NCBI GenBank assembly: GCA_013239625.1
Contig: MU053136.1
Location: 514,017-578,016, forward strand
DNA: 64,000 bases
Direction: 5' to 3'
DNA from: Lama guanicoe
Taxonomy: Eukaryota
The translations under genes and the position numbers were made by a program. The notes beneath the pieces are model-generated. The model was not told the DNA's origin and did no database searches. It saw only the letters and a list, made by a program, of their open reading frames with translations. This document shows positions 54,101 through 57,100 of the stretch, piece by piece (position 1 is the stretch's first letter; the number at the start of each line of letters is the position of its first letter).

Positions 54101-57100
54101 GATGGTGGCTGGTCTGGGCCCCAGGCGCCCACCCTGGTTGGTGCAGTTGGCGTGTGTCTCATCGCTGTAGTCCCCACAGTCGTTGTCCCCGTCGCAGGTC
54201 CAGTGCTCAGGGATGCAGCGCCCACTGTTGCACTTGAACTGGGTGCTAGAGCAGGAGTGGCTGCAGCCGGCCTCGTCACTGTTGTCCCCACAGTCATTGT
54301 CTGGGGGGCAGGAAGAAGGGAAAAGGAGATGGGGGGTCAGCAAGCAGCAGCCTTCTCTGTGACCCCAGCGTGGGGCCCCCACTCCCGCCTCCCCATTCCC
54401 ACCCTCCACCCACCCAAGCCTCCTGCTGAGAAAATAACAAACAGAAAAGACACAGAAACTGCATAGACTGCAGCATGCACCATGGCCCGCGTGGTAAGGG
54501 CGGGGAGAAGCGGGGTGGGCTCCCCGAGGGCCCGTCCCTGAGTCCCGGAAGGCTGGGGGTGGGCACAGGACTCATTCCTTTCCCAGTCTGGCAGGGTGTG
54601 GGAGCAGGGGTCTGCTCGCTCTGGGGGAAAGGCAGGGATTTCTCTGGTTTTGGAGACACAGTGGTGGGTGGAGTGTAGGTGATGCCTCTCTGCTGGGGAG
54701 GGAAGGGCTTCATTAGGCCCCGCCCTGAGCGTGGGCATCACCGGCCCGTGCTCTGCGTGCCCGGCTCTCGAGGGGCACTGCCTGCAGCTGGGAAGGCCGG
54801 GGTGCTTCTGGAGGGCATCTGAAGGTGACCGAGTGCACGTCCTGCTTTCTAGGCCTCGTGGGTGCGGCTACCAGACCTCCCTCCACAGTTCCAGGCCGCT
54901 TGAGAAGACGGGTTTGGCTGTCCCCCTTGAGTTGTGTTCCTGCCTCTTTTCCAGCTGGATCTGCGTCTCTAACGCTCTCCCGCATCAGGTCTTGTGGTTC
55001 TTGTCCCCACTTCTCTGTCATCTCCTCCCCATCTCCGCTGCTTCCCTTCCGCTGTTTTCTTTCTCCCTCTGTGCTCTCTGCTCTCACTTTTCTCTGCTTT
55101 TCCTTCACATCCTAGGAGTTTGGGGAGGGGAGCTCCTGGGGGTCCTGGGAGGCGGCCCGAGGCCAGCTGGGGATCTAGGGGTGATGGTGCATGTGCTTCT
55201 ATGCACTGACCGGCAGGCTCAGGACAGGTCTTTTCGTCAGAGCCGTCCCCACAATCCTTCTCTGAAACACAGAAACCGCCAGGGCAGCCATTGGCACACA
55301 AGACACGGCAAAGATGAGGGGCAACGTGGCGCTGACCCAACACATCCTCACACACGAGAGCCAGGGCTCGAGCCACTGCTGCGACACGTCACAACACCAC
55401 ACCAGACACAACCAGAGCCCCGAGACAGTGCACACACAACGGTCCACCGGCCCCCGTGGCTCTGGGATGACGTCACCTGGTCCAGGGCTGACCGCAAGGT
55501 GGGCTCCCGAGCCTGGAGTCGGAGCCCGGAGGTTGCACCAAGGACCCCAGGAGACAGAGCTCGCAGGGAGAAGGGAGTTGGGCACTGGGCTGTCTTTGCT
55601 CTGCCCCTCTGGCCCTATTTGCTCATTTCTCCCTGGCCCCAGAGCCTCTGCCAGAGGATGGGCATCTCAGGCCCTGCTCGGGGAGGCATGGAGCTGATGG
55701 GTGATGGGTGGGGTCTCCTCTTGGTCCATCTCGGTTCCCCCAGTGTTTCTGACTCGTCCTCACTGCCCCCAGCCAACCCAGCAGGGATTCAGTGAACTGA
55801 TTCTAAAACCCCTTCCCCTCCCACCCAGGGCCTGGCTGTGGTTTCCAGCTTCCTAGGCATCCGGGCAGGTGAAGGGGAACAAGCTCTTACCATTGTCACA
55901 CCTCCAGTTGATGTTGATGCATCTGCCGTTGTTGCAGGTAAACTGAGTCAGGGGGAAGCAGGTGGGGTAGGCTGTCAGGGAGAAAGAGTAGCTGAGTAGG
56001 GCCCTCAAGACTACACAGCAACGTAGCACTGAGAGGGTGGGCGCAGGGCCCCTTCCGTAACTGGCAGCCCAGCCCAGCCCAGCCAGTGAGGGGAGGGGAG
56101 GCTAAGCGGCGGTGCCTTGGCCTGAAACCCTGCCTGTTCAACTCTCATCCCTCCGAGCATCCTTTTTAAGCCCCAGGGTACGTTCTCGTGGGCCCTCCCT
56201 TCCCGTGCCAGCCGGGCCTTCCTGCTGCCCCGCTCACCACACGAGGCTGACTCGTCGGAGCGGTCCCCACAGTCATCGTCCAGGTCGCACGTCCAGGAGA
56301 TGGGGATGCAGCGGCCACTGGCGCAGGAGAACTGGTTGGGTGGGCAGGTGCGAGCTGGGGGCAGGGATGGGCATAAGTGCTTGTAGTTGAGTCCCCTCTT
56401 TAACTCCATTTTCTTTCCTATTGTTCTCTGCCTCTCCGGAAGTCTTCCCAAGGGTCTCAAAGCCATTTCCCTTAGAGATGTTGTTCAAAACCACCCGTGT
56501 GGTCTCGTATCGGATGCCTCACCCCATCTCTTGAGGGGACGCTGGTGTCCTCCAAGGAGAAGGCCCGCTCACCTCGTTTGTCATCCCCAGCCTGGAGCTG
56601 TGCTCTGCCCCCTGCAAGTGGGGGCCTCCCGTCCTCACTGGGGGGGGGGCACACGTCTCCTCCTGCCCAGGATCCCTCTTCCCTGCCCCACACTCCTTTC
56701 TCTCTCTGAGGCCCTTCTGTCTTCTCAAGCCTGGCTCCTCCATCTGCCCTGCCCCAGCTACCGAGGGACGCAGAGTGGTCACCACCCCACCTGAACAAGT
56801 GGCATTGGACTCGTCTTCACTGTTCCCACAGTCATTGTCCCCGTCACAGAGCCAGCGGTTGGGGATGCAACGGTTGTTCTCGCACTTGAACCGGTCCGAG
56901 GGGCAGGTGTGCTGATCTGGGGAGGGAACGGGTCAGGGGTCAGCCTGAGGGAGGGGCCCCAGCTCTCCAGCTGCTGCCCCGCGGGCCTGCTGTCCAACAG
57001 CGCGGGGCGGTGACTCACGGCAGAGGGCGGGCGCCTCGTCGCTGTTGTCCAGGCAGTCATTGTCCCCATCGCATTTCCAGCGCTCCTGGATGCAGCGGCT

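What the first reader, a model, noticed from the sequence alone, without database searches (positions are those of the whole stretch)
55211..55261. Hidden 51-nt cassette exon supplies a second C-terminal half for LRP1 ligand-binding repeat CR6
Seen in sequence: intron 19 splits CR6 after ...NWRCDN (phase 1). Inside it is a 51-nt segment with a clean acceptor (tgtgtttcag) and donor (G|gtcagt), phase 1-1, encoding [17 protein letters not shown]. That is the LDLa consensus DCxDxSDExxC, paralogous to the [13 protein letters not shown] at the start of exon 20. The canonical exons already sum to full LRP1 length without it, so it is an extra module. Established: LDLa repeats use C1-C3, C2-C5 and C4-C6 disulfides and an acidic Ca2+ cage, and cluster II (CR3-10) is a main ligand and RAP binding region. 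Inference: inclusion would close CR6 with a different acidic face (NEKD instead of NDND). It would also leave an orphan two-Cys half-repeat as a spacer before CR7, changing tandem-repeat spacing and ligand selectivity. It may already appear in predicted isoforms; I know of no functional description.
Basis: partly seen in the sequence, partly recalled or inferred. Interest (0 to 1): 0.8.

Follow-up and report, generated by a model that had tools for sequence, protein, structure and literature searches.

The report
Known rare LRP1 half-repeat cassette exon
A 51-base optional exon inside an LRP1 intron encodes a spare back half for one ligand-binding repeat; it is real and conserved from fish to mammals, but it was already found and RT-PCR-verified in human in 2007, and its function is still unknown.

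Summary
Window 55261..55211 is a 51-nt, phase 1-1, stop-free segment with AG/GT borders in the 1590-nt intron that splits LRP1 repeat CR6. It encodes [17 protein letters not shown].

It is not new. Leparc & Mitra 2007 (PMC1904267) predicted the human orthologue (intron 19; 50 of 51 nt identical, K to Q). They sequenced both junctions and detected it as a minor variant in 17 of 18 human tissues.

New here:
- In 7 of 7 unspliced orthologous ORFs, the exon plus about 18 nt upstream and 32 nt downstream is nearly invariant (236/238 residues), while the rest of the intron diverges.
- Two teleost gene models, 2 of 28 that span the junction, carry a 17-aa orthologue at the same place.
- The cassette-closed CR6 scores like the normal one (51.6 vs 51.7 bits).
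- The splice sites are weak, not clean.
- It is no recent copy of exon 20 (28/51 nt).

I found no functional study.

Verdict: a genuine, ancient, rarely included alternative exon that is already known. Its structural effect is inferred only.

The parts
55891..55971 (-). It holds the N-terminal half of repeat CR6 with cysteines 1-4 and ends ...NWRCDN in phase 1.
   Evidence: Boundaries come from spliced mapping against fish LRP1 model P0226 and from direct reading.
55263..55280 (-). Conserved last 18 nt of the upstream intron part (GGTTTCTGTGTTTCAG with the acceptor AG). In the cassette frame it reads GGFCVS.
   Evidence: GGFCVS is invariant in 8 of 8 aligned unspliced ORFs. The acceptor PWM score is 0.38; only 1 of 25 true acceptors scores lower.
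55211..55261 (-). The 51-nt alternative cassette exon, phase 1-1. It encodes [17 protein letters not shown], an LDLa C-terminal half with cysteines 5 and 6 and a 4-residue tail.
   Evidence: The human orthologue differs at 1 of 51 nt and has both junctions sequenced. Teleost orthologues are in P0161 and P0241.
55179..55210 (-). Conserved first 32 nt of the downstream intron part (donor GTCAGT and what follows). Together with the exon's last G it reads [11 protein letters not shown] in the cassette frame.
   Evidence: Invariant in the 8 aligned ORFs except for one A to T change in P0003. The donor PWM score is 6.03; 7 of 25 true donors score lower.
54133..54300 (-). Constitutive exon 20. It holds the normal C-terminal half of CR6 ([13 protein letters not shown]) and the whole next repeat.
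   Evidence: The canonical junction NWRCDN|DNDCGD is present in 26 of 28 spliced LRP1 models.

Best explanation
This is the orthologue of the published human LRP1 intron-19 cassette exon. It is a rarely included, in-frame alternative exon with weak splice sites that has been kept since before teleosts and tetrapods split.

Shown: when it is spliced in, the mRNA reads exon 19 - cassette - exon 20. This was shown in human by sequenced RT-PCR products.

Inferred: the first C-terminal half to emerge, the cassette's, most likely closes CR6. It supplies cysteines 5 and 6 and the DxSDE calcium-cage residues. The normal half ([13 protein letters not shown], two cysteines) is then left as an unpaired stretch that lengthens the CR6-CR7 linker by 17 residues.

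The CR6 face would change at a few non-consensus positions: EK for DN before the DC, G for N inside DxSDE, and KT for AG before the last cysteine. The Trp and the acidic residues would stay.

Such an isoform would differ in how tandem repeats dock lysine pairs of ligands. The near-invariant intron flanks and the lack of synonymous change point to added RNA-level (splicing-regulatory) constraint.
For: 1. Anatomy: 51 nt, AG/GT borders, phase 1-1, no stop.

2. Human evidence (PMC1904267):
- Table 3 lists LRP1 intron 19 among 26 exons 'confirmed by cloning and sequencing'.
- Fig. 4B shows a minor variant in all 18 tissues tested except uterus.
- Supplement files 4 and 10 give the 51-nt exon and sequenced products across both junctions.

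3. Conservation:
- 7 of 7 database ORFs that hold the cassette are unspliced orthologues. Cassette residues are identical in 118/119 cells and the 34-residue block in 236/238.
- The flanks are far less alike: 83/127 in the 20 columns upstream and 47/84 downstream, with many gaps.
- For the four divergent rows alone: 134/136 in the block against 33/70 and 16/44 in the flanks.

4. Depth: P0161 (Coregonus) and P0241 (Caranx) carry [15 protein letters not shown][P/L]T at the same junction. The length is the same 17 aa. 12 (Coregonus) or 11 (Caranx) of the 17 residues match the window, and all differences lie at non-consensus positions.

5. Fold fitness, using my own LDLa profile (45 repeats, CR6 left out): cassette-closed CR6 scores 51.6 bits against 51.7 canonical in the window, and 51.3-51.4 against 48.3-49.5 in fish. 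The left-over half gives only a partial hit of 11.6-12.8 bits.

6. Read by eye against the human products: the cassette has 0 synonymous and 1 non-synonymous difference. The flanking exon parts differ at 5/80 and 10/161 nt, all synonymous.
Against: - No junction evidence for this species.
- The run index only showed holders of the whole stretch, intron flanks included.
- 0 of 7 cassette-holding ORFs of 31-2000 aa were spliced forms, and 26 of 28 spliced models lack it. Inclusion is therefore low or restricted.
- The human RT-PCR was semi-nested and not quantitative. The variant was not visible with flanking primers.
- The splice sites are weak. 16.5% of 1443 decoy AGs and 7% of 853 decoy GTs score at least as well.
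- Which half closes CR6, whether the product folds, and any effect on ligands are inference only. The AlphaFold2 model was uninformative, with mean pLDDT 41.9.
- The orthologue set is biased: only ORFs that still hold the words could be found.
- I do not know whether RNA evidence supports the two fish models.
Confidence: 0.7

Rival explanations
1. The block is kept for an RNA- or DNA-level role, such as an intronic splicing-regulatory element or another conserved non-coding element. Its occasional splicing yields a misfolding receptor with two unpaired cysteines that is discarded. Inclusion would then be noise, or at most a way to trim LRP1 output, not a working isoform.
For: - Conservation runs into the intron on both sides with no change even at would-be silent positions.
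- There is no synonymous difference from human in 17 codons, while the flanking exons differ at about 19% of codons (by eye).
- The splice sites are weak and inclusion is low.
- A tandem pair of C-halves occurs nowhere else among 1402 C-half motifs in the 260 stored proteins.
Against: - Between fish and mammal, 5 or 6 of 17 residues differ, yet every LDLa consensus residue, the 17-aa length and the phase are kept. That is the pattern of selection on the peptide.
- The cassette-closed repeat scores as well as the normal one.
- No Rfam family matches at the block.
Confidence: 0.22
2. It is a dead duplicated fragment of an LDLa exon that happens to keep AG and GT and is spliced only by chance.
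For: Intron 19 has 340 open in-frame AG..GT candidates, and the cassette's site scores are unremarkable.
Against: - It is not a recent duplicate. The best match among 23 other C-halves is 32/51 nt, and exon 20's start gives 28/51.
- The block is 236/238 identical across divergent introns.
- An orthologue sits at the same place in two teleost models.
- Both junctions were sequenced in human.
Confidence: 0.05
3. The two halves are mutually exclusive: the cassette replaces the normal half through an inner acceptor in exon 20, so no orphan half is made.
For: An AG lies right after the codons of the normal half, at ...GGCTGCAG.
Against: - Use of that AG would shift the frame, as direct reading shows.
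- The human sequenced product joins the cassette to the first base of exon 20.
- The fish models also hold both halves.
Confidence: 0.02

Closest known systems
Human LRP1 intron-19 novel cassette exon of Leparc & Mitra 2007 (PASE; Nucleic Acids Res 35:3192, PMC1904267)
   Same: It has the same place, the same 51-nt length and the same phase. 50 of 51 nt are identical and the peptide is the same apart from K to Q. The human exon overlaps a PhastCons element, both junctions were sequenced, and it was a minor variant in 17 of 18 tissues.
   Different: - The window is from another mammal.
- The paper ranked the exon by a casein-kinase motif score. In the parts I read (abstract, sections 15, 17, 26, 30, all six LRP1 passages, supplement rows) it says nothing of an LDLa half-repeat, of CR6, or of conservation beyond PhastCons.
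Alternatively spliced ligand-binding repeats of other LDL-receptor relatives (APOER2/LRP8, VLDLR)
   Same: These are in-frame cassette exons in the ligand-binding region of a family member that change the repeat make-up. The APOER2 papers appeared (listing only); the details are recalled.
   Different: Those exons add or remove whole repeats. This one adds half a repeat and would leave the normal half unpaired. I saw no other tandem C-half pair among 1402 motifs.
smLRP1, the truncated LRP1 variant (Kolb et al. 2017, PMC5491174)
   Same: It is another LRP1 splice variant verified by PCR (abstract, section 18).
   Different: smLRP1 uses an alternative terminal exon 7a with a stop and a polyA signal, giving a 296-aa secreted fragment. 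It is unrelated to CR6.

Membership tests
LDL-receptor class A (LDLa, complement-type) repeat, C-terminal half | Acidic calcium-cage motif D-C-x-D-x-S-D-E followed by the sixth cysteine | tested here: met
   [11 protein letters not shown] is read directly. Pfam PF00057 matches profile positions 22-37 of 37 at 15.7 bits, below the 24.1 whole-domain cut-off as expected for half a domain.
LDL-receptor class A (LDLa, complement-type) repeat, C-terminal half | Six cysteines with family spacing and a full-length profile match once joined to the exon-19 half | tested here: met
   My own profile of 45 repeats, with CR6 left out, gives these scores:
- Window: spliced form 51.6 bits over profile 2-35 of 35, against 51.7 canonical.
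- Natural fish models: 51.3-51.4 bits against 48.3-49.5 canonical.
LDL-receptor class A (LDLa, complement-type) repeat, C-terminal half | C1-C3, C2-C5, C4-C6 disulfides and bound calcium in the folded module | not testable with these tools
   The AlphaFold2 model of the fish CR5-7 stretch with the insert had mean pLDDT 41.9 and shows nothing. This needs disulfide mapping or a solved structure.
Conserved alternative cassette exon | AG/GT borders, length a multiple of three, no stop | tested here: met
Conserved alternative cassette exon | Exon and adjacent intron more conserved than the rest of the intron | tested here: met
   The block is 236/238 identical with no gaps, against 83/127 and 47/84 in the flanking 20 columns. 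Only protein-level reads of the orthologues were available.
Conserved alternative cassette exon | Both junctions seen in RNA | tested here: inconclusive
   They were seen in human by others, as sequenced RT-PCR products.
Conserved alternative cassette exon | Regulated (tissue- or stage-specific) inclusion | not tested
   The only data are non-quantitative semi-nested PCR: present in 17 of 18 human tissues.
Poison (NMD-triggering) exon | Frameshift or in-frame stop on inclusion | tested here: not met
   Inclusion adds 17 residues and no stop.

The most novel reading that the evidence does not exclude
The +17-residue form is a working, regulated LRP1 isoform, kept since before the teleost-tetrapod split. 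In it CR6 is re-closed by an alternative C-terminal half, and the displaced normal half acts as a spacer. This re-tunes which ligands the CR5-CR7 tandem of cluster II binds (for example RAP or activated alpha2-macroglobulin) in particular cell types or stages where inclusion is high. It would be a 'swappable half-repeat' way of diversifying an LDL-receptor relative, and I found no description of that.
Probability: 0.3. Interest if true: 0.7.

Novelty: already known. Interest (0 to 1): 0.35.

Why it matters
LRP1 is usually treated as a single-isoform receptor, and cluster II is its main ligand- and RAP-binding region (recalled knowledge). An optional exon inside that cluster was verified in human in 2007, yet I found no follow-up. 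The same 17-aa insert sits at the same place in two teleost gene models. That makes it a concrete and cheap target: count junctions in existing RNA data, look for the junction peptides, and compare CR5-7 with and without the insert. If the isoform is functional, it would show a new way to vary a ligand-binding repeat, by swapping half a module. If it is not, it is a clear case of a deeply conserved but rarely used exon.

Tried and rejected
1. RNA junction test. The look-up of sequencing runs on 55161-55311 listed 24 runs.
- 21 hold the stretch or part of it, and 20 of those hold at least half of the 13 sampled words, which means intron flanks too. 6 are on record as RNA.
No junction data exist for this species.

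2. Database searches for spliced forms with the cassette.
- The 17-aa query was too short.
- The 58-aa read-through query found only 7 unspliced ORFs.
- Proteins over 2000 aa could not be searched, so full-length mammalian isoform records remain unchecked.

3. The search of protein representatives gave only one full-length relative, P0040 (45% identical). I did not use it further.

4. DNA-level orthologues.
- A degenerate pattern found 0 loci in metagenome contigs.
- No whole genome is held for the window.
- So splice-site bases and silent sites of the other orthologues were not seen. Only the human exon was.

5. Rfam.
- Nothing matched at the cassette. The five weak hits in 54000-56100 all lie elsewhere and below their cut-offs.
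- The whole window gave 0 hits at gathering score.

6. AlphaFold2 of a 145-residue part of fish model P0161 with a 15-row alignment gave mean pLDDT 41.9, which is uninformative. No fold search was made.

7. Earlier notes of this scan: three look-ups found nothing.

8. Literature.
- The Nova paper PMC2014790 mentions only Lrp12.
- Searches found no paper other than PMC1904267 on this exon.
- Supplement file 1 of that paper was not searchable.

9. I considered and dropped two ideas:
- Recent duplication of the start of exon 20.
- Mutually exclusive use through an inner acceptor, which is out of frame and contradicted.

Full report
WHAT IS THERE

The window is a non-human mammalian LRP1 locus on the minus strand. 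LDLa, EGF and YWTD-type reading frames run from about 63.9 kb down to about 13 kb. A neurexophilin gene lies beyond the 3' end.

Read on the minus strand, 55261..55211 is a 51-nt segment. It is preceded by GGTTTCTGTGTTTCAG and followed by GTCAGT.

I mapped 25 introns against a fish LRP1 model:
- The upstream exon is 55971..55891 and ends AAT G|gtaaga, in phase 1.
- The downstream exon is 54300..54133.
- The intron between them is 1590 nt.

With the carried-over G, the segment reads [17 protein letters not shown] and hands a G to exon 20. An in-script splice adds exactly 17 residues and no stop. Exon 20 holds the normal second half of the split repeat plus the next whole repeat, which matches PDB chain 1j8e_A of LRP1.

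IS IT MORE THAN CHANCE?

Frame and AG/GT borders alone are not enough.
- Intron 19 holds 340 open, in-frame AG..GT candidates of 30-330 nt.
- I scored the sites with a position matrix built from the 25 mapped LRP1 junctions. It is a small training set, so the scores are rough.
- The cassette acceptor scores 0.38. That is lower than 24 of 25 true acceptors, and 16.5% of 1443 decoy AGs do as well.
- The donor scores 6.03. 7 of 25 true donors are lower, and 7% of 853 decoy GTs do as well.
- The sites are canonical but weak, not 'clean'.

What marks the segment out is its content and its conservation.
- Pfam's LDLa model matches its last 16 positions (15.7 bits).
- It has no close paralogue among the 23 other C-terminal halves in the window. 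The best is 32/51 nt and at most 10/17 aa. The start of exon 20 gives 28/51 nt and 8/17 aa. It is therefore no recent copy.

CONSERVATION

I searched the protein collection with the 58-residue read-through of the segment. This found 5 ORFs of 103-2000 aa (among 12 candidates) and 2 of 31-102 aa (among 2 candidates).
- All 7 are unspliced genomic-type ORFs from unnamed assemblies.
- In the alignment with the window, the cassette is identical in 118 of 119 residue cells. The single change is T to A in P0006.
- A 34-residue block (GGFCVS, the cassette, [11 protein letters not shown]) is identical in 236 of 238 cells with no gaps.
- The 20 columns on either side give 83/127 and 47/84, with many gaps.
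- For the four divergent rows alone the figures are 134/136 against 33/70 and 16/44.
- Because the flanks are intron, their invariant 'translation' means near-invariant DNA over about 100 nt.

Caveat: only ORFs that still hold the query's words can be found, so decayed orthologues would be missed.

DEPTH

A search with exon 20 returned 732 hits, of which the best 120 were listed. A cluster look-up added 35 members.
- These gave 28 spliced LRP1 models or fragments that span the junction: 12 and 16. Several are isoforms of one species.
- 26 read NWRCDN|DNDCGD.
- Two carry a 17-residue insert at exactly this place: Coregonus sp. 'balchen' (P0161, [17 protein letters not shown]) and Caranx melampygus (P0241, [17 protein letters not shown]).
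- 12 (Coregonus) or 11 (Caranx) of the 17 residues match the window. All differences lie outside the LDLa consensus.
- The exon therefore predates the teleost-tetrapod split. The pattern of change fits selection on the peptide.
- I do not know whether RNA evidence supports those two fish models.

ALREADY IN PRINT

Leparc & Mitra 2007 (PMC1904267) built a predictor of cassette exons in RefSeq introns. It requires splice-site scores, an open frame, overlap with a PhastCons element and a Scansite motif (section 17).
- Their Table 3 lists 'LRP1, intron 19, Casn_Kin1, GDGSDEQTCPEPADN' among 26 novel human exons confirmed by cloning and sequencing.
- Fig. 4B reports the exon as a minor variant in all 18 tissues tested except uterus. 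It was seen with exon-specific semi-nested primers but not with flanking primers.
- The supplement gives the 51-nt human exon, the context [26 protein letters not shown], and sequenced products across exon 19|cassette and cassette|exon 20.

I compared these with the window by eye.
- The human exon differs at one base, AAG to CAG (K to Q).
- The adjoining parts of exons 19 and 20 differ at 5 of 80 and 10 of 161 bases, all silent.
- At that rate, about 15 per 80 codons, roughly three silent differences would be expected in 17 codons. None is seen, which has a chance of about 0.03 by hand calculation.

In the parts I read, the paper treats the exon as a 'signaling motif'. It does not mention the LDLa half-repeat.

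I found no other paper on the exon. The human peptide occurs only in that paper. The other verified LRP1 variant, smLRP1, is an unrelated truncation at exon 7a.

HOW IT MOST LIKELY WORKS

Shown:
- In human the included mRNA keeps both halves, as do the fish models.

Computed, with an LDLa profile built from 45 repeats with CR6 left out:
- The cassette-closed CR6 is a full-length match. It scores 51.6 bits against 51.7 for the normal CR6 in the window, and 51.3-51.4 against 48.3-49.5 in fish.
- The left-over normal half gives only a 12-13-bit partial hit.
- Such a tandem of two C-halves occurs nowhere else among 1402 C-half motifs in the 260 stored proteins.

Inferred:
- The cassette half is made first and closes CR6.
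- The Trp and the acidic cage are kept, while EK replaces DN, G replaces N and KT replaces AG.
- The displaced half, with two free cysteines, lengthens the link to the next repeat.
- LDLa pairs bind lysines of ligands through a Trp and the cage acids (recalled knowledge). A changed face and spacing could therefore alter ligand choice.

None of this was tested. The AlphaFold2 model was too poor to use, with mean pLDDT 41.9.

The main rival keeps the facts but denies a working protein. It says the block is conserved for an RNA-level role and the rare product misfolds. The lack of silent change and the invariant intron flanks speak for RNA-level constraint. The fish-mammal pattern speaks for peptide constraint. 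Both may hold.

WHAT COULD NOT BE DONE

- Full-length isoform records of more than 2000 aa.
- DNA of the other orthologues.

VERDICT

This is a real, ancient, rarely used alternative exon of LRP1. Its existence is already known, and its structural reading and deep conservation add to that. Its function remains open.

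Noticed in passing
window 2021-2950, minus strand: An open frame of 310 aa downstream of LRP1 matches Pfam Neurexophilin (PF06312, 229.6 bits). This is a neighbouring neurexophilin gene on the same strand.
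   Followed up: partly
window 33332-33369: A run of 38 N, an assembly gap, lies inside the LRP1 locus next to LDLa-coding frames. An exon end may be missing there.
   Followed up: no
window 42742-42832: A perfect tandem repeat of a 30-nt unit, 3.0 copies, lies in an LRP1 intron. On the minus strand it reads as the repeated peptide [10 protein letters not shown].
   Followed up: partly
window 54304-54413, minus strand: The last ~100 nt of intron 19, just before exon 20, give weak matches to three microRNA precursor families (mir-1236 at 25.6 bits against a cut-off of 115, plus mir-702 and mir-4654). All are far below threshold and probably reflect GC-rich hairpin-like composition.
   Followed up: no
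window 47402 and 45312, minus strand: Two of the 25 mapped constitutive LRP1 donors also have C at intron position +3 (GTCAGC, GTCGGT), like the cassette's GTCAGT. This unusual base is therefore tolerated in this gene.
   Followed up: no
window 3906-3929 and 12723-12742: These are short (TG)n and (AC)n microsatellites outside the LRP1 coding part.
   Followed up: no
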